Source: a virus
Taxonomy: Duplodnaviria > Caudoviricetes
Length of the DNA stretch: 64,000 bases
Strand: one strand, 5' to 3'
Virus record (IMG/VR): IMGVR_UViG_3300020345_000381
Coordinates: 6,474-70,473 of that record
The notes beneath the pieces are model-generated. The model saw only the letters and a list, made by a program, of their open reading frames with translations. It was not told the DNA's origin and searched no databases. Positions 29,504 to 34,704 of this stretch are shown here, one piece after another (the first letter of the stretch is position 1; each line of letters opens with the position of its first letter). The position numbers and the translations under genes are program-made.

Positions 29504-30955
29504 TTAAATACCTTTAAATAATACAAAGTTATTAGCAGCTTGAGTTACAAGACATCTTTCTGAAAGGAAGTTGACTTCCATTGCATCAAGATTAGAAGTG
29601 TAAGCACCTCCAGCTGATCCAGTTAACCAAGACTTCATACGTCTGTCTTCTGTTTGAGAAGCTCTATATCTAACGTGTAAGAATGGTCGTCTGATATTTG
29701 TACCTAAAATTTGATCGTAAACAGTAGATGTACCAGCTGGTATTAATACTCCTTCTATTGATTGAGTTCCAGCGATAGCACCTCTTGTAGACGCATCATT
29801 TAAATATTTCCAGTCAGTCTTATAGAAATCATAAGATCCTCTTCTGAAACCGCTAAATCCAAGATTTAAAGCCATTTCTTCTGAGTTTTCAAATAATCCA
29901 TAAGCAGTACCACCAGAACTTCCTGCAGATATTAGAGATAACATGTTATCAAATTCTAACGCAGTTGATCTTTGTAAGAATAACATATTTTCTTCAATAG
30001 CTCCTTGAGTATCTAGGTTTTTAAGTATTTCATCAAAGTCATCTATACCAGATGCTCCAGCGAATCCAACTTCTACATTACCTCTTGATGAGATAGCTGC
30101 AAAAAGACCTTCAGTACCTTTAAAACCTGAAGCAGCAGCGTTATTTCCAGCAGCCGCAACAGCGATCTCACCTTCAACACATACCATTTCTAGGTAATCT
30201 TCAAATCTTAATCTTGTTTCAGATTCAGCTTTTAAATACCATAAATATCCAGTAGTTCCATCTTCCGTTGCAACTTCAACCCAACCAATTTGAGCCATAT
30301 CAGAACCATTTATTGTATAAACGTTTCTGATAATGATTGGTGAATTGTTATATTGCTGGAAAGCAGGAGTAATAGTTATTTGTGGTTGTACAGTATTATT
30401 TAAAGCTAAAGCTCCAGCACCCGCATTAGATGTTGATGCACCTTTAATAAATTCTGAACCATAAACAAATATTTTTACTGAAGTACCTAGACCGCTTAGA
30501 TCTGTACTTAAATAAGGAGCAACAGTTATAACACCAGTACCGGTATTAGAAGCTGTTACAACACATTTTGCTTCATTACCATTATCGTCTAAAACTACAA
30601 TAGTTTGACCTGGAGATATTACATTTCTTGTAACACCAGGAGCTGTTGCAGCAGGTACAGTAACAGTAGATGGGTTAGCTTGATCGTTAACACAGTTGTC
30701 ATATGCAATATGTAATCTATTTTGCTCTGACCAAACAACTTGATCTGAAGTCAGAGGCATTTCAGCTCCTACCATACGTAAAAAACCTGATAGAGTTCTG
30801 TTTCCATATCTCTCTACTTCTTGTTCATATATTTCTGGTAGATATTGCTGAGCAAAATCATTATTACCATCTGTAAAAGATAGGTAATTACTGGCTAATA
30901 GCTGCTGATTAGGAGCAGGAACTATTGAGCCAAATTGTGGAGTTAATACACCCAT
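29504..30955 (-). CDS. major capsid protein
   Basis: 483 aa between scaffold and adaptor genes; FAQQYLPEIYEQEVERYGNR motif as in Bacteroidetes podophage capsids; followed by a terminator. Confidence 0.8.
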   Translation of the reverse strand: MGVLTPQFGSIVPAPNQQLLASNYLSFTDGNNDFAQQYLPEIYEQEVERYGNRTLSGFLRMVGAEMPLTSDQVVWSEQNRLHIAYDNCVNDQANPSTVTVPAATAPGVTRNVISPGQTIVVLDDNGNEAKCVVTASNTGTGVITVAPYLSTDLSGLGTSVKIFVYGSEFIKGASTSNAGAGALALNNTVQPQITITPAFQQYNNSPIIIRNVYTINGSDMAQIGWVEVATEDGTTGYLWYLKAESETRLRFEDYLEMVCVEGEIAVAAAGNNAAASGFKGTEGLFAAISSRGNVEVGFAGASGIDDFDEILKNLDTQGAIEENMLFLQRSTALEFDNMLSLISAGSSGGTAYGLFENSEEMALNLGFSGFRRGSYDFYKTDWKYLNDASTRGAIAGTQSIEGVLIPAGTSTVYDQILGTNIRRPFLHVRYRASQTEDRRMKSWLTGSAGGAYTSNLDAMEVNFLSERCLVTQAANNFVLFKGI

Positions 30956-30974
30956 AATTGATAATTATTTATTT

Positions 30975-32264
30975 TTAATTAAACGTTTTCTTTTTTATTC
31001 TTAATTTTGAAGAATCAAGCCCACTAATTGCTTTTACTTTTAATCCACCTACAAATACTTCTCCTGAAGCTGTTTTTCTAGGTTCAGTACTAATGTTTTT
31101 AGATTTTGCTAATTGTTCTTTAATTGCATCGGTTTTACCTTGCTCATAAAAATGATTAGCAATAGTATCAACATTTTGTGCTGCATATAAAGCTTTATGA
31201 TAACCTTGATGATTTTCTACTTCTCCGTTTTTATTCAGAAACTTCTGAATAAAATTAGATATATCACTTTGATTATCTGCAACGTTTGAAGGATCTTTTA
31301 CTCCGTATCTAAATTTTTTATCTCCTAATTTAAAATCAAAACCTTTGAAATCTTCGTTAAAAAGCGTTTTAGTTTTAGATACAAATCTTTCATGTTTAGC
31401 TTCATTTAATGCTTGATCTTCAGTATAGCGATTGAAAAAGTCCATTGCTTTTTGTTGTTCTTGTGTTACACCGGGTCTCAACTTGATTTCGGCATAATAT
31501 TTACTTTTAAGATCTTCTAAAAAGTTTTTGGCTTTAGCTATCTCTTCTTTGTAAGCGAGTTTTTTCTTTTTTATATCTCGCTCCTCATCCACCTCTTCAT
31601 CATAGCTAAAAGAATCTTCAATAATAAAGCTTCTTTCTTCCATGTTTAAATGAGGCTTAGCTTGTTTGTAATATTCATGTAATAATGCTTCATCATTTAC
31701 TTTACTATAATCCGCATTTAATCTAGCATAGTCTTCAACAGTTCCACCTGTTTCTTCCATGAATTTTACTAAATTTTCTATATTTTCAGGAAGTTTTTGT
31801 GTTTCTCCTTCCTGTTGTATTTCTTCTTGTTTTTGTGAGGCAGTGGTAGTTTCAGTGCTTCTATCCATTCCTGTCTCGTTAGTATTATCTTCTTCATCAG
31901 TAATTTCTTGTAAAGGTGAATCCGATTCTATTTTTTCTTCTTGAGTTTCAGAAACTTTGCTGGACTTGAGTACCGATTCGTCCACCTTAGTGCTATCTCC
32001 GGTTTGTTCGCCCACAGCCACTTCCTTTGTTTCTCCGACTTGAATGGCATCTTTTTCTTCTTTTTTAGGTTTACTTAAATCTACTTTAACTAAATCAGGA
32101 ACTAATTTTTCATCACCTAATTGTTTAGGTTTAGTTACTTTTTTTATTTTAAAACTACCTTCTTCTTGAGGAGGTTTTTCTTTTGTAGATTCAACTGTTT
32201 CTTTAGCTTCTTCTACTTTTTCTAATACTTTTTCTTTTATTGTTTCTTCTACTTTTTTTGACAT
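30975..32264 (-). CDS. putative scaffolding protein
   Basis: Acidic, low-complexity, helical; between portal and capsid. Confidence 0.65.
   Translation of the reverse strand: MSKKVEETIKEKVLEKVEEAKETVESTKEKPPQEEGSFKIKKVTKPKQLGDEKLVPDLVKVDLSKPKKEEKDAIQVGETKEVAVGEQTGDSTKVDESVLKSSKVSETQEEKIESDSPLQEITDEEDNTNETGMDRSTETTTASQKQEEIQQEGETQKLPENIENLVKFMEETGGTVEDYARLNADYSKVNDEALLHEYYKQAKPHLNMEERSFIIEDSFSYDEEVDEERDIKKKKLAYKEEIAKAKNFLEDLKSKYYAEIKLRPGVTQEQQKAMDFFNRYTEDQALNEAKHERFVSKTKTLFNEDFKGFDFKLGDKKFRYGVKDPSNVADNQSDISNFIQKFLNKNGEVENHQGYHKALYAAQNVDTIANHFYEQGKTDAIKEQLAKSKNISTEPRKTASGEVFVGGLKVKAISGLDSSKLRIKKKTFN
31778..31897 (-). CDS. overprinted +1-frame small basic protein B in the scaffold gene
   Basis: MKKIILTRQEWIEALKLPLPHKNKKKYNRKEKHKNFLKI; same frame as A, starts 30 nt after A's stop. 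Confidence 0.6.
   Translation of the reverse strand: MKKIILTRQEWIEALKLPLPHKNKKKYNRKEKHKNFLKI
31928..32050 (-). CDS. overprinted +1-frame small basic protein A in the scaffold gene
   Basis: MPFKSEKQRKWLWANKPEIALRWTNRYSSPAKFLKLKKKK; host GC3 jumps exactly at its ATG. Confidence 0.7.
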   Translation of the reverse strand: MPFKSEKQRKWLWANKPEIALRWTNRYSSPAKFLKLKKKK

Positions 32265-32292: not shown

Positions 32293-34704
32293 TTAAGATG
32301 GACTAAATTGTTCTAATCCAAAACCATCTAAGTTATCATTTCCTGCAGATTCAAAATCTTTAGGTAGTGAATCATTTTGACGTTGAGCTATTAGTTCACT
32401 TTGTTGTGTACCTTGTATTTTAACTCTTTTGTCTTTTCTATCTTCTATTTCAGCTTCCTTAGCTTTTTGAGCTTGCCCTTGTATTTGAGCTAATTGCATA
32501 TCATAATTAAATTCTTCTGCCATTAACTGTTTTTTAAGCAGCGCTTCTTGTTCCATTTTCTTTATTTCAAATTGAGATTTAGCTTGTTCAATTTGTATTT
32601 CTGTTTCAGCCAAAGCTTGTTGTTTTTGTACTTCTGCTAATGCTGCTTTTTCGGCGGCTTCAGCATTAGCCTGTGCTTGAACTTCTATATTTTCTAATTG
32701 TTGTGCTCTAGCTATTTCTTGTTTTTTCTTTTGTCTAGCTTTTAAACTTTGATTAGCAAGTTTTATATTTTTTATTTCTCTTAAATCAATAGCATCTTCT
32801 AAACCTATATTTTGTTGCTGAAGAGACATTTGAATATTTTGTTCTAACAATGCTTTTTCTTCTTCTTCTGGTTCTAATTCTAAAAATATTCCAAAGTCAT
32901 GCATACTTAATTTTTCAACTTCTATTAAAGTATTGGTATTAAAAGTATTTATACTTGTTAATAAACTTTGTTTAGTTAAAGGAAATTGTAGCATATCTGC
33001 TGCTCTTAAACTAATATTTTCGCATACTCTAACAGTTAAATACATTAAAGATTGTAACACGTGTTTTGTAGCTGTATTAGAGTTTGCAGCTGCTAATTTT
33101 TGTAAACCTACTAAAGAATCTTTTGTCGGAGCACTTCCATCTCTTGCTTCATTTAATCCAGTAACATCTCTTATCATTTGTAAATAATATTGATAAGTTT
33201 GTATCATAGATTGAATTTTTCCCATTCCATTAGAAGTTTGTAATTCTTGTACTGGAATTTTACCTCTATTTAATTCTCCATCTTGAGTTAGTGATCTACC
33301 AACTATACTACCAGTTTGAAAATACATATTTAATGCTTCTGCTGGATTATAATTAGTTCCATTGCCTAAATCAACTTCCGCTAATCCATCTACATCTAAA
33401 TAAACCCCATCTGGTACCATTTTAGATAATACTTGTTGTAATTTTAAATGAGTTAATTGAATCATATCAGCAAAACCTATACTTTTACTTACTAAAGATT
33501 CTATTCTTCCTTGATACATTCTAGGAGCACTTATAACATAATTCATGTTAACTTTAGTAGTGTCACTATATGGTCTAGTCATATTTTCACTTAATTCCCA
33601 TTTAAGTAAATTACCTCCTAAACCTAATACTTTTGCTCCGCAATATAATACTTCTATTGCTCTTGAAACTCTTTCAAAATTATCATTTGGTGGCGGATTA
33701 AATGTATCTGGTTTTTCTAATATTTTTTCTAATCCTTGTTCAGTTTGTTTTATTTTAAAAACTTGATCTTGATATGTTTTATATTCAAAATATAAAACTT
33801 GAACTTGATCTTGTGTTTCTTGTCCCCACCAAGTATTTTCTACATAAGAATTTCTTCCAGGATATTTTTGTATTTCTTCTAAATCACTATCAGTTAAATT
33901 AGGAAATTGTCTTTTAAGTTCTGATAATGACATATTTTTAACTTCTCCTACGTAGTATATATCTTCAAAATTAGGATCATCTGTATAAGAATAAACTATA
34001 TTAGCAGGATTAACATAATCAACGGTAATTCCTTCTGATAAATTAAAATCAGTTTTTACACACCCAATACCTAAAACCGTTAAATCATAAGCTAGACGCT
34101 TTTTAACTTCGTTATATTTATTATATGATAAAATATTATCTAATAATTCTTCCTCTGCAATTTCAATACTTTGTTTATAAGTTAATTGCATGTATAAATC
34201 TAATTCATTAGGATCTTCTGGTAAATTCTCAGGATCGGAAGAAGAATAAAAATTTTGACCAGTTAAAGATGTTAATTGATCTATTTCGGCTTTATTTTGA
34301 ATATCTCTTAACGCATTTTCAGCATAAACTGTTCTTTCTTTATTAGCAAAAGGATCTTGTGCGTAAGATTTTATTTCATATCCTTTATCTGTCATACCGT
34401 TTACAACAATATCAACAAATTTAGATAAAATAGGTACTGGTTTCCAATCTAAGTTAAGATAAGATAAATCACCATTAATAGCTAATTCATTTTTATATTT
34501 TTGAACTGGTTGTTCTCCTCTTGCATATAATCTTAATCTATTAAAATTTTGAAAATTACTGATAAAACGGTTTTGACCGCTGGAGTTTCTAAACCACTCA
34601 TGCTCAATTGCTTGCGCTACTTGTAGTCCATACTCTCTAGATTTTTTCTCTTCTTCAGGTACCACCTGATCAGGAAAAGCACTATTGTAGTTGATTTTAA
34701 TCAT
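32293..34704 (-). CDS. portal protein
   Basis: 803 aa directly after terL; SYLNLDWKPVPILSKFVDIVVNG motif. Confidence 0.85.
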   Translation of the reverse strand: MIKINYNSAFPDQVVPEEEKKSREYGLQVAQAIEHEWFRNSSGQNRFISNFQNFNRLRLYARGEQPVQKYKNELAINGDLSYLNLDWKPVPILSKFVDIVVNGMTDKGYEIKSYAQDPFANKERTVYAENALRDIQNKAEIDQLTSLTGQNFYSSSDPENLPEDPNELDLYMQLTYKQSIEIAEEELLDNILSYNKYNEVKKRLAYDLTVLGIGCVKTDFNLSEGITVDYVNPANIVYSYTDDPNFEDIYYVGEVKNMSLSELKRQFPNLTDSDLEEIQKYPGRNSYVENTWWGQETQDQVQVLYFEYKTYQDQVFKIKQTEQGLEKILEKPDTFNPPPNDNFERVSRAIEVLYCGAKVLGLGGNLLKWELSENMTRPYSDTTKVNMNYVISAPRMYQGRIESLVSKSIGFADMIQLTHLKLQQVLSKMVPDGVYLDVDGLAEVDLGNGTNYNPAEALNMYFQTGSIVGRSLTQDGELNRGKIPVQELQTSNGMGKIQSMIQTYQYYLQMIRDVTGLNEARDGSAPTKDSLVGLQKLAAANSNTATKHVLQSLMYLTVRVCENISLRAADMLQFPLTKQSLLTSINTFNTNTLIEVEKLSMHDFGIFLELEPEEEEKALLEQNIQMSLQQQNIGLEDAIDLREIKNIKLANQSLKARQKKKQEIARAQQLENIEVQAQANAEAAEKAALAEVQKQQALAETEIQIEQAKSQFEIKKMEQEALLKKQLMAEEFNYDMQLAQIQGQAQKAKEAEIEDRKDKRVKIQGTQQSELIAQRQNDSLPKDFESAGNDNLDGFGLEQFSPS

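What the first reader, a model, noticed from the sequence alone, without database searches (positions are those of the whole stretch)
31778..31897. Second nested basic protein in the scaffold gene
Seen: same +1 frame, starting 30 nt after the stop of the first nested ORF: MKKIILTRQEWIEALKLPLPHKNKKKYNRKEKHKNFLKI* (39 aa). It has a helix-like N-half and an NKKKYxRKxKHK basic C-half. Two clean ATG-to-stop ORFs in tandem inside one gene suggest a nested mini-operon. Inference: nucleic-acid- or ribosome-binding peptide.
Basis: partly seen in the sequence, partly recalled or inferred. Interest (0 to 1): 0.7.

Follow-up and report, generated by a model that had tools for sequence, protein, structure and literature searches.

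The report
Hidden basic gene inside scaffold gene
A 39-codon reading frame hidden inside the head-scaffold-position gene of an uncultured marine phage is a real, conserved gene for a tiny, strongly basic protein of a large family that nobody has characterised, so this phage group stacks overlooked genes on top of known ones.

Summary
The ORF is present exactly as described. It lies at 31778-31897 on the minus strand, has 39 codons, is in the +1 frame of the 429-codon gene between portal and major capsid genes, and starts 30 nt after the first nested ORF.

Its length alone is no evidence: 91% of synonymous resamplings of the host gene give a +1 ORF this long. The comparative data decide the matter.
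- Intact copies sit at the same place in 14 related contigs from a scaffold-based search, and in 76 of the 80 best contigs from a motif-based search.
- Substitutions are purged in its frame (pN/pS 0.18-0.28) but not in the host frame (1.45-2.0). Relatives that lack it show the reverse.
- The ATG is invariant and preceded by in-frame stops.
- Under normal codon usage the host frame would stay open with P about 1e-4.

ORF2 belongs to a family of at least 1,200 sequence clusters. Members are free-standing in 140-170 kb phage-like contigs and resemble Pfam DUF7230 only below its cut-off.

It is therefore a genuine overlapping gene for a 4.9 kDa protein with net charge about +10. Its function is untested. 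The near-invariant basic tail weakly resembles the ribosome-channel tail of ArfA. A "mini-operon" is not needed, because ORF1 and ORF2 occur independently.

The parts
31778..31897 (-). ORF2: nested gene of 39 codons plus a TAG stop, in the +1 frame of the host gene
   Evidence: Searches give coordinates and translation. Intact homologs lie at the same place in 14 contigs of the scaffold-based sample and in 76 of the 80 best motif-based contigs. pN/pS is 0.18-0.28 in this frame.
31847..31897 (-). ORF2 N-half (residues 1-17): invariant ATG, a short strand-like stretch and a predicted helix (residues 8-15), with the conserved LTxxEW..A pattern
   Evidence: Alignments A1 and A2. AF2 model with mean pLDDT 79.7 and a helix at 8-15. 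pN/pS is 0.43 in the ORF2 frame against 1.95 in the host frame. An in-frame stop lies within 10 codons upstream of the ATG in 73 of 74 unique loci.
31796..31846 (-). ORF2 C-tail (residues 18-34): the near-invariant PxPH-NKKKYxRKxKHK basic motif
   Evidence: Invariant columns P18, P20, H21, N23, K25, K26, Y27, R29, K30, K32, H33, K34 in A1. pN/pS is 0.11. This is the part that matches DUF7230 and PHROGs 6310/18092/2701 below cut-off and, weakly, ArfA residues 28-47.
31898..31927 (-). 30-nt spacer between the ORF1 stop and the ORF2 ATG (coding in the host frame)
   Evidence: In loci with both ORFs the spacing is 15-42 nt, with a mode of 24.
31928..32050 (-). ORF1: a separate nested gene of 40 codons in the same +1 frame (context, not the finding itself)
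   Evidence: Present in the +1 frame in 71 of 80 scaffold relatives. pN/pS is 0.38 in its frame against 1.35 in the host frame. The host frame stays open with P < 5e-5 under normal codon use. Host G/C-ending codons are 16/41 here against 1/71 upstream.
30975..32264 (-). Host gene of 429 codons, in the scaffold position between portal and major capsid genes. It has an N-terminal helix, a predicted disordered acidic linker (residues about 25-154) that carries both nested ORFs, and a confident helical core (about 157-400).
   Evidence: ORF. Searches identify the neighbours (portal phrog_6547, capsid-like phrog_13704); the relatives are annotated 'structural protein'; pLDDT is below 50 over residues 25-45, 47-63, 65-115 and 123-154. 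There is no PHROG, Pfam, PDB or Foldseek match for the host protein itself, so 'scaffold' rests on position and helical nature only.

Best explanation
ORF2 is a genuine protein-coding gene overprinted in the +1 frame on the disordered acidic linker of the scaffold-position gene of an uncultured marine podovirus. The group is related to Flavobacterium, Cellulophaga and Tenacibaculum phages.

SHOWN:
- Both reading frames are maintained.
- Purifying selection acts on the ORF2 frame, while the host frame is merely kept open there.
- The ATG is invariant and cannot be reached from upstream in-frame translation.
- The gene has persisted through deep splits of the scaffold lineage, with occasional decay.
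- It belongs to a large family of 35-60-residue basic proteins that are free-standing genes in other, larger phage-like contigs.

INFERRED:
- It is translated from its own ATG on the late structural mRNA. When ORF1 is present, initiation may be helped by ribosomes terminating 15-42 nt upstream.
- The product is a 4.9 kDa peptide. Its short N-terminal strand and helix act as a docking module. Its near-invariant PxPH-NKKKYxRKxKHK tail binds a conserved polyanionic target.

My odds:
- Real translated gene: about 0.9.
- Given that it is real, nucleic-acid binding: about 0.7. This splits into RNA or ribosome about 0.4 (of which an ArfA-like plug of the mRNA channel is about 0.15) and DNA or virion-internal about 0.25, with the small remainder unassigned.
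- Given that it is real, some other role, such as a protein partner or counter-defence: about 0.3.
For: (1) Conservation. In the scaffold-based sample, which was not selected for ORF2, 14 contigs have an intact 39-codon copy with 16 invariant residues.

(2) Wider conservation. A motif-based scan finds at least 277 viral contigs. Of the best 80, 76 have an intact ATG-to-stop copy wholly inside a 380-450-codon ORF, always as that ORF's +1 frame.

(3) Selection.
- Diversity by ORF2 codon position is 0.21, 0.12 and 0.39.
- pN/pS is 0.19 in the ORF2 frame and 1.76 in the host frame.
- With 75 unique copies the values are 0.28 and 1.45.
- Control: the homologous 31-codon linker in ORF2-less relatives gives host 0.41 and +1 frame 0.62. 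ORF2-bearing loci of the same sample give host 2.03 and +1 frame 0.18.

(4) Dual constraint. Given the ORF2 peptide and phage codon usage, the host frame stays open in only 1e-4 of resamplings. ORF2 uses T-ending codons 1 time in 39, against 47% genome-wide.

(5) Own start. The ATG is invariant, and an in-frame stop lies within 10 codons upstream in 73 of 74 loci.

(6) Decay when broken. L004 has lost the ATG, gained a stop and changed otherwise invariant residues. L057 and L031/L035 are also degenerate.

(7) Family.
- 51 representatives at E <= 1e-3 among 1.84 billion proteins, 8 of them at E <= 1e-10.
- 1,205 clusters at E <= 1e-3 among 5.8 billion.
- Free-standing copies lie in 140-170 kb phage-like contigs.

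(8) Phylogeny. Presence is strongly clustered on the scaffold-core tree and is found in three deep clades.

(9) The overlapped host segment is predicted to be disordered, which fits a host frame that only needs to stay open.
Against: - There is no direct evidence of translation.
- Within this genome the ORF length and the host G/C-ending codon share are not significant.
- The RNA around the ORF2 ATG is not unusually unstructured: MFE -3.3 kcal/mol, 38th percentile. The ORF1 and host starts are in the least structured 6-8%.
- The simple pN/pS method is biased in overlapping frames, so only the large asymmetry and the flipped control are meaningful.
- The second sample was selected by the ORF2 motif.
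- None of the cultured relatives carries the gene, so it is dispensable for this virion type.
- Function: no curated family is reached at its cut-off, and no fold match exists.
Confidence: 0.8

Rival explanations
1. Specific functional reading: ORF2 works like the small alternative ribosome-rescue factors ArfA and ArfT. Its basic tail would enter the empty mRNA channel of a stalled or vacant 30S subunit, and the N-half would recruit a release factor or block the site. This would free or redirect ribosomes late in infection.
For: - Protein-language-model neighbours of ORF2, and of a free-standing member, include a 46-residue 'ArfA domain' cluster (score 0.91-0.92; 23% of its members carry PF03889).
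- Smith-Waterman alignment against E. coli ArfA residues 1-55 scores 43. With segment-preserving shuffles p = 0.011. Fourteen family members give p from 0.0005 to 0.16.
- An HMM built from 121 ArfA sequences scores 164 family cores at a median of 5.7 bits. Composition-matched decoys score 0.9 and reversed sequences 2.5. The match is ungapped and runs from ArfA 28-47 onto the family tail, with a shared YxRKxKH.
- Size and architecture match ArfA (52-55 residues when mature) and ArfT (40 residues), whose basic tails bind the empty mRNA channel (PMC6299226, read).
- The same tail is found on unrelated N-terminal parts in MAG contigs assigned to other phyla (L188, L189), which suggests a universally conserved target.
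Against: - The Pfam ArfA model hits none of 49 members at E <= 1 and nothing in the genome at E <= 10.
- hhalign gives only 13 columns, at 3% probability.
- PDB sequence and fold searches are empty.
- The KGKGS motif is absent.
- The family is not a bacterial chromosomal gene: only 13 MAG contigs carry it among 185,579 species genomes.
- All the similarity evidence reduces to one short basic motif, so convergence or chance (roughly p 0.01-0.05 after a few looks) is not excluded.
Confidence: 0.15
2. ORF2 is a DNA-binding or charge-neutralising peptide. It would be made with the head proteins and either packaged with the genome or help DNA condensation as the acidic scaffold leaves the procapsid.
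For: - Net charge is about +10 in 39 residues.
- It is encoded inside the head-assembly module, within the acidic linker of the scaffold-position gene, so it is co-expressed late.
- In big-phage contigs the free-standing copy sits near a glucosaminidase or SLT-type lysin and other small genes on one strand.
Against: - A generic polycation would not need invariant P, H, N and Y positions, nor a conserved N-terminal module.
- It is absent from cultured relatives with the same virion genes.
- It has been lost repeatedly.
- There are no proteomic data.
Confidence: 0.2
3. ORF2 is not initiated on its own. Instead it is read as a trans-frame tail: ribosomes translating the host N-terminus shift +1 and finish in the ORF2 frame.
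For: Two distant relatives (L097, L098) carry a 1-nt deletion. It hard-wires exactly such a fusion of the acidic N-terminus to the basic tail. Gene callers report these fusions as P0035 and P0042.
Against: - The ATG is invariant and the N-half is conserved from that ATG onward in the +1 frame, with pN/pS 0.43 against 1.95 for the host frame.
- No slippery site is apparent.
- Free-standing homologs start at the equivalent Met.
- In L097 and L098 the N-half is still conserved in its own frame.
Confidence: 0.05
4. ORF2 is a non-functional by-product. An E/K/T-rich host sequence would simply lack +1 stops, and the peptide would look conserved only because the host protein is conserved.
For: Long +1 ORFs are expected from the host's composition. 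Nothing at the single-genome codon level marks ORF2.
Against: - The host frame is the less conserved one over ORF2 (pN/pS 1.45-2.0), and its third codon positions are the least variable.
- ORF2-less relatives have many +1 stops at the same place.
- Homologs exist as free-standing genes.
- Broken copies decay.
Confidence: 0.04

Closest known systems
Pfam DUF7230 (PF23876) and PHROGs 6310, 18092 and 2701 (all of unknown function)
   Same: All are small proteins of about 40-46 residues whose C-terminal part matches the ORF2 tail. 30 of 49 family members hit DUF7230 (best E 2e-5). 23, 16 and 13 members hit the three PHROGs respectively. DUF7230 clusters are also language-model neighbours.
   Different: Every hit is below Pfam's gathering score: ORF2 scores 16.1 bits against 27, and the highest bit score shown for a member is 22. 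Only the tail aligns (profile positions about 13-39). The N-half pattern LTxxEW..A is not covered. None of these families has a known function, and no paper mentions DUF7230.
phiX174 gene E inside gene D, and lambda Rz1 inside Rz (from established knowledge, not tested here)
   Same: In each case a small gene lies wholly embedded, out of frame and on the same strand, in a larger phage gene. In phiX174 the host gene is also a scaffolding protein gene and the nested frame is +1.
   Different: E is a membrane lysis protein and Rz1 a lipoprotein. ORF2 has no hydrophobic segment and no lipobox cysteine. Here two unrelated nested genes are gained and lost independently within one disordered linker. 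The nested gene also has many free-standing homologs elsewhere. This argues against a purely local de novo birth, or else for later export of the gene.
ArfA (PF03889) and ArfT, small release-factor-dependent ribosome rescue factors
   Same: They share the size class (40-55 residues) and the plan of a neutral N-part plus a lysine/arginine tail. They share YxRKxKH directly after a K-rich stretch. The similarity is weak but holds up under composition control. The role of the tail is taken from PMC6299226.
   Different: ORF2 has no KGKGS motif, no hit to the curated ArfA model and no detectable fold match. It is phage-borne rather than chromosomal. It ends at a normal stop codon inside another gene, whereas ArfA is made from a truncated non-stop mRNA. 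No activity has been tested.

Membership tests
Overlapping (overprinted) protein-coding gene | Lies wholly inside another ORF, on the same strand, in a different frame | tested here: met
   the +1 frame, host codons 123-162. The same arrangement holds in 76 of the 80 best motif-based contigs.
Overlapping (overprinted) protein-coding gene | Purifying selection in the nested frame that host-frame constraint cannot explain | tested here: met
   pN/pS is 0.18-0.28 in the nested frame and 1.45-2.03 in the host frame. The pattern is reversed in relatives without ORF2.
Overlapping (overprinted) protein-coding gene | The host frame is also maintained (true dual coding) | tested here: met
   P(host frame open) is 1e-4 under normal codon use. 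The host ORF is open across the linker in all 80 relatives, and most share an N-terminal motif.
Overlapping (overprinted) protein-coding gene | Conserved own start codon that upstream in-frame reading cannot reach | tested here: met
Overlapping (overprinted) protein-coding gene | Direct evidence of translation | not testable with these tools
ORF2 family (unnamed; alignments A1-A3) | 35-60 residues with LTxxEW..A, then PxPH, then NKKKYxRKxKHK | tested here: met
   The window copy carries all 16 invariant residues of A1.
Pfam DUF7230 (PF23876) | Score at or above the curated gathering cut-off (27 bits) | tested here: not met
   ORF2 scores 16.1 bits and the highest bit score shown for a member is 22. 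It is related, but outside the curated boundary.
ArfA (PF03889) | Match to the curated ArfA profile | tested here: not met
   no hit at E <= 10 in the genome, and none at E <= 1 for 49 members.
ArfA (PF03889) | Conserved KGKGS motif in the tail | tested here: not met
   a K-rich stretch without the glycines stands in its place. The YxRKxKH that follows is shared.
ArfA (PF03889) | Binds the empty mRNA channel and recruits RF2 | not testable with these tools
Embedded o-spanin (Rz1-like) | Signal peptide with a lipobox cysteine | tested here: not met
   the composition has no Cys and no hydrophobic leader.
Phage scaffolding protein (host gene) | Homology to a known scaffold family or fold | tested here: not met
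   Searches find no match. The label rests only on gene order (portal, this gene, capsid) and a helical core.

The most novel reading that the evidence does not exclude
The ORF2 family would be a phage-borne analogue of the small ribosome-rescue factors (ArfA or ArfT type). Its invariant tail would probe the empty mRNA channel of host ribosomes late in infection. That would make it the first such factor in phages and in the Bacteroidota world. It would also have been captured into, or born from, the acidic linker of a head-scaffold gene, a basic peptide read from the +1 frame of an acidic one.
Probability: 0.15. Interest if true: 0.85.

Novelty: new variant of a known kind. Interest (0 to 1): 0.6.

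Why it matters
Gene callers skip ORFs that lie inside other genes, so this layer of phage coding capacity goes unseen. This case has unusually clean comparative proof.

- A large group of abundant marine phages carries one or two independent small genes written over the disordered linker of a head-assembly gene.
- The nested gene belongs to a family of more than a thousand clusters with no known function.
- It offers a tractable model for how overlapping genes arise. One route is capture of a mobile small gene into a tolerant linker. The other is birth of a basic peptide from the +1 frame of an acidic linker, followed by export.
- It points to a sharply conserved basic motif whose target, possibly the ribosome, is worth finding.

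Tried and rejected
Single-genome tests that were not significant:
- ORF length.
- Host G/C-ending codon shift over ORF2.
- RNA accessibility at the ORF2 start, which was unremarkable.
- Sigma-70-type promoter and terminator scan inside the gene, which found no more than shuffles do.

Searches that found nothing:
- tblastn of ORF2 against 50,697 cultured phage records.
- The cultured relatives MW202828 and the elemo phages, which lack both nested ORFs.
- Pfam ArfA and DUF7230 models on the whole genome.
- PDB sequence search with the family profile.
- Foldseek against PDB with the ORF2 model and with the host model.
- phmmer of the host protein against PDB.
- Literature searches for DUF7230, for a phage-encoded ArfA and for the elemo phages, which returned nothing relevant.

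Other dead ends:
- The hhalign comparison of A1 with E. coli ArfA was too weak to count.
- A search for ArfA homologs returned only near-identical enterobacterial sequences, so no diverse ArfA profile could be built. The W handle has no relatives.
- Two 562-residue 'cluster mates' of P0001 are unrelated membrane proteins, a clustering artefact.

- Complex prediction (ORF2 with a Flavobacterium RF2).
- The look-up of sequencing runs.

Rejected readings: spanin-like embedded gene (no Cys, no hydrophobic segment); a tmRNA or translation-gene neighbourhood (only one tRNA-Met in the window).
Full report
WHAT IS THERE

The window is 64 kb of a 70.5 kb IMG/VR virus record. The region is a head-gene block on the minus strand, in this order:
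- a portal gene (32293..34704; phrog_6547, E 3e-138);
- a 429-codon gene (30975..32264);
- a capsid-like gene (29504..30955; phrog_13704).

The closest cultured relatives are podoviruses of Flavobacterium (elemo phages), Cellulophaga, Tenacibaculum and Maribacter, at 25-49% portal identity.

The reported ORF is real. It lies at 31778..31897 on the minus strand and has 39 codons plus TAG. It is in the +1 frame of the 429-codon gene and starts 30 nt after the stop of another nested ORF (31928..32050) in the same frame. The product is 4.9 kDa, with pI 10.5 and net charge about +10.

CHANCE WITHIN ONE GENOME

The host protein's N-terminal 156 residues are rich in E, K, T and S, so its +1 frame naturally lacks stops. 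Re-encoding the host protein with the phage's codon usage gives a +1 ATG-ORF of 39 or more codons in 91% of trials. The host's G/C-ending codon share over ORF2 (7/40) is ordinary, unlike over ORF1 (16/41 against 1/71 upstream).

COMPARATIVE EVIDENCE

A search with the host protein returned 80 viral contigs at 95-50% identity. Reading their +1 frames gave the following:
- ORF1-like peptides are present in 71 of 80.
- An intact 39-codon ORF2 is present in 14 (L001-L003, L005-L014, L044).
- Broken copies are in L004 (no ATG, an internal stop, and invariant residues changed) and L057.
- Degenerate remnants are in L031 and L035.

The 14 copies share 16 invariant residues (A1).

Substitution patterns point to the ORF2 frame:
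- Over ORF2 codons 2-34, diversity by ORF2 codon position is 0.21, 0.12 and 0.39. The host's third codon positions are thus the least variable. pN/pS is 0.19 in the ORF2 frame and 1.76 in the host frame.
- At ORF2 codons 35-39 the pattern switches to the host frame, where the conserved host core begins.
- Control: the homologous 31-codon linker in ORF2-less relatives behaves as ordinary single-frame coding sequence (host 0.41, +1 frame 0.62, +2 frame 1.65). ORF2-bearing loci of the same unbiased sample give host 2.03 and +1 frame 0.18.
- In ORF2-less relatives that segment is a different, host-conserved sequence full of +1 stops.

The host frame is also under constraint. With the ORF2 peptide held fixed and normal codon usage, the host frame stays open in only 1e-4 of resamplings (below 5e-5 for ORF1). 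ORF2 uses T-ending codons once in 39, against 47% genome-wide. The host ORF is open across the linker in all 80 relatives, and most share an N-terminal motif. Both frames are therefore maintained, which is true dual coding.

A second scan used the family alignment:
- It found at least 277 viral contigs. Of the best 80, 76 have an intact copy (35-49 residues) wholly inside a 380-450-codon ORF, always in that ORF's +1 frame. The other 4 are free-standing.
- Over 75 unique nested copies, pN/pS is 0.28 in the ORF2 frame (N-half 0.43, tail 0.11) and 1.45 in the host frame. This sample was selected by the tail motif, so the N-half figure is the fairer one.
- The ATG is invariant. In 73 of 74 unique loci an in-frame stop lies within 10 codons upstream, so translation must start at that ATG.

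On a tree of the host core domain (131 rows), presence of ORF2 is strongly clustered and occurs in three deep clades. One of these is a 36-member clade with ORF2 but no ORF1. Losses are sporadic and recent.

ORF1 lies upstream in only 24 of 69 unique ORF2 contexts, and 55 lineages have ORF1 alone. The two nested genes are independent modules, not an obligate operon.

THE FAMILY

- A profile search of 1.84 billion representatives gave 51 hits at E <= 1e-3 (8 at E <= 1e-10), all 33-111 residues with the same core.
- A word-indexed search of 5.8 billion clusters gave 1,205 hits. All are 'hypothetical', come from marine and other metagenomes, and carry no precomputed Pfam domain.
- In 140-170 kb phage-like contigs the gene is free-standing among small same-strand genes. 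The conserved order is a glucosaminidase or SLT-like lysin, a 44-residue basic protein, a 61-residue acidic protein, the ORF2 homolog, a SWIM-type protein and an HNH protein.
- Among 185,579 species genomes only 13 MAG contigs carry it. Five are from Bacteroidota bins and none is from an isolate. It is therefore a phage gene, not a host gene.
- Two of those contigs (L188, L189) attach the same tail to unrelated N-terminal parts.

Curated libraries give only sub-threshold matches, and only to the tail:
- DUF7230: 30 of 49 members hit, best E 2e-5. ORF2 itself scores 16.1 bits against a cut-off of 27.
- PHROGs 6310, 18092 and 2701: all of unknown function.

STRUCTURE

- AF2 with the family alignment gives mean pLDDT 79.7. 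There is one helix at residues 8-15 and an extended tail with short turns. Foldseek finds nothing.
- The host protein model has an N-terminal helix, then no confident structure over residues 25-154 (pLDDT below 50), then a confident helical core. Both nested ORFs lie in the predicted disordered linker. This explains how the host can tolerate a segment whose sequence is dictated by another frame.

FUNCTION

Nothing here tests function directly. The near-invariance of P, H, N and Y within the basic tail, across contexts and N-terminal partners, argues for a specific conserved target rather than generic charge.

The only named lead is ArfA:
- It appears among the language-model neighbours of both ORF2 and a free-standing member.
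- The E. coli ArfA gene (L095:4435-4650) aligns to ORF2 with score 43 (p = 0.011 with segment-preserving shuffles; reversed control 36).
- An HMM built from 121 ArfA sequences scores the family tail systematically above composition-matched decoys: median 5.7 bits against 0.9 (shuffled) and 2.5 (reversed). The match is ungapped, onto ArfA residues 28-47.
- According to PMC6299226, that part of ArfA lies in the empty mRNA channel, and ArfT (40 residues) is a similarly small, independently evolved factor.

Against the ArfA lead:
- The curated ArfA model, hhalign, PDB sequences and fold search give nothing.
- KGKGS is absent.
- All the evidence is one short basic motif.

I put the ArfA-like reading at about 0.15, RNA or ribosome binding in general at about 0.4, and DNA or virion-internal binding at about 0.25, all given that the gene is real.

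ORIGIN

The more constrained frame is ORF2's, and free-standing homologs are numerous and diverse. This favours capture of a pre-existing small gene into a tolerant linker. The opposite route remains possible: birth of a lysine-rich peptide from the +1 frame of a glutamate-rich linker, followed by export. I could not resolve this.

VERDICT

- The nested gene is real (about 0.9).
- The 'mini-operon' is unnecessary.
- 'Ribosome or nucleic-acid binding' is a reasonable but untested guess.
- This is a new variant of a known kind (out-of-frame embedded phage genes such as phiX174 E in D). It involves an uncharacterised, widespread small-protein family.

Noticed in passing
window 31928-32050 (-), and L001-L080: ORF1, the first nested ORF, is also a real overlapping gene. 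It is present in the +1 frame in 71 of 80 relatives. pN/pS is 0.38 in its frame against 1.35 in the host frame, and the host frame stays open with P < 5e-5. Its sequence comes in several distinct types that do not follow the scaffold tree: L003 and L005 carry a different type from L001 and L002. This suggests module exchange inside a coding region. It has no Pfam match, and only a weak hit to phrog_1375.
   Followed up: partly
L097:3001-3600 and L098:3001-3500: Two distant relatives share a 1-nt deletion in the middle of ORF2, where intact relatives such as L127 and L150 have one more base. The deletion does three things:
- It ends the ORF2 N-half at a TGA.
- It fuses the acidic host N-terminus to the basic ORF2 tail (called as P0035 and P0042).
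- It leaves the scaffold core as a separate 264-267-residue gene.

Both halves still look conserved in their own frames. The state could be a stable split or need recoding; this is undecided.
   Followed up: partly
L050:3053-4093: In this relative the ORF1-type N-terminus is in frame with the scaffold core, giving a 347-residue fusion, and a stop lies directly upstream. This is either a frame change in the linker or an assembly error.
   Followed up: no
L188:1399-1605 and L189:3863-4066: The same C-terminal basic motif (PH, then a K-rich stretch, then YxRKxKHK) ends small proteins with unrelated N-terminal parts. The contigs are binned as Desulfovibrionaceae and Patescibacteria. The tail behaves as a portable module.
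   Followed up: no
L092:5156-6983 (also L084-L094): In 140-170 kb phage-like contigs there is a conserved run of small genes around the free-standing ORF2 homolog. The order is a membrane-anchored glucosaminidase or SLT-like protein, a 44-residue basic protein, a 61-residue acidic protein, the ORF2 homolog, a SWIM-finger protein and an HNH protein. Several called homologs carry odd C-terminal extensions that probably read into the next gene's start region.
   Followed up: no
L004:2511-3818 and L057:1243-2439: These are recent pseudogenes of ORF2 inside otherwise intact host genes. L004 has lost its start, gained a stop and changed invariant residues. They show that ORF2 is dispensable, and that its conservation elsewhere is not imposed by the host frame.
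   Followed up: yes
window 30975-32264 (-): The host 'scaffold' gene has no match in Pfam, PHROGs, PDB sequences or Foldseek. GenBank relatives are annotated only as 'structural protein' or 'hypothetical protein'. The scaffold label rests on gene order and a helical core.
   Followed up: partly
L097 and L098, upstream of the match: In these two contigs the portal region is called as two genes (556+203 and 568+217 residues) rather than one gene of about 800 residues. I did not check whether this is a real split or a frame error.
   Followed up: no
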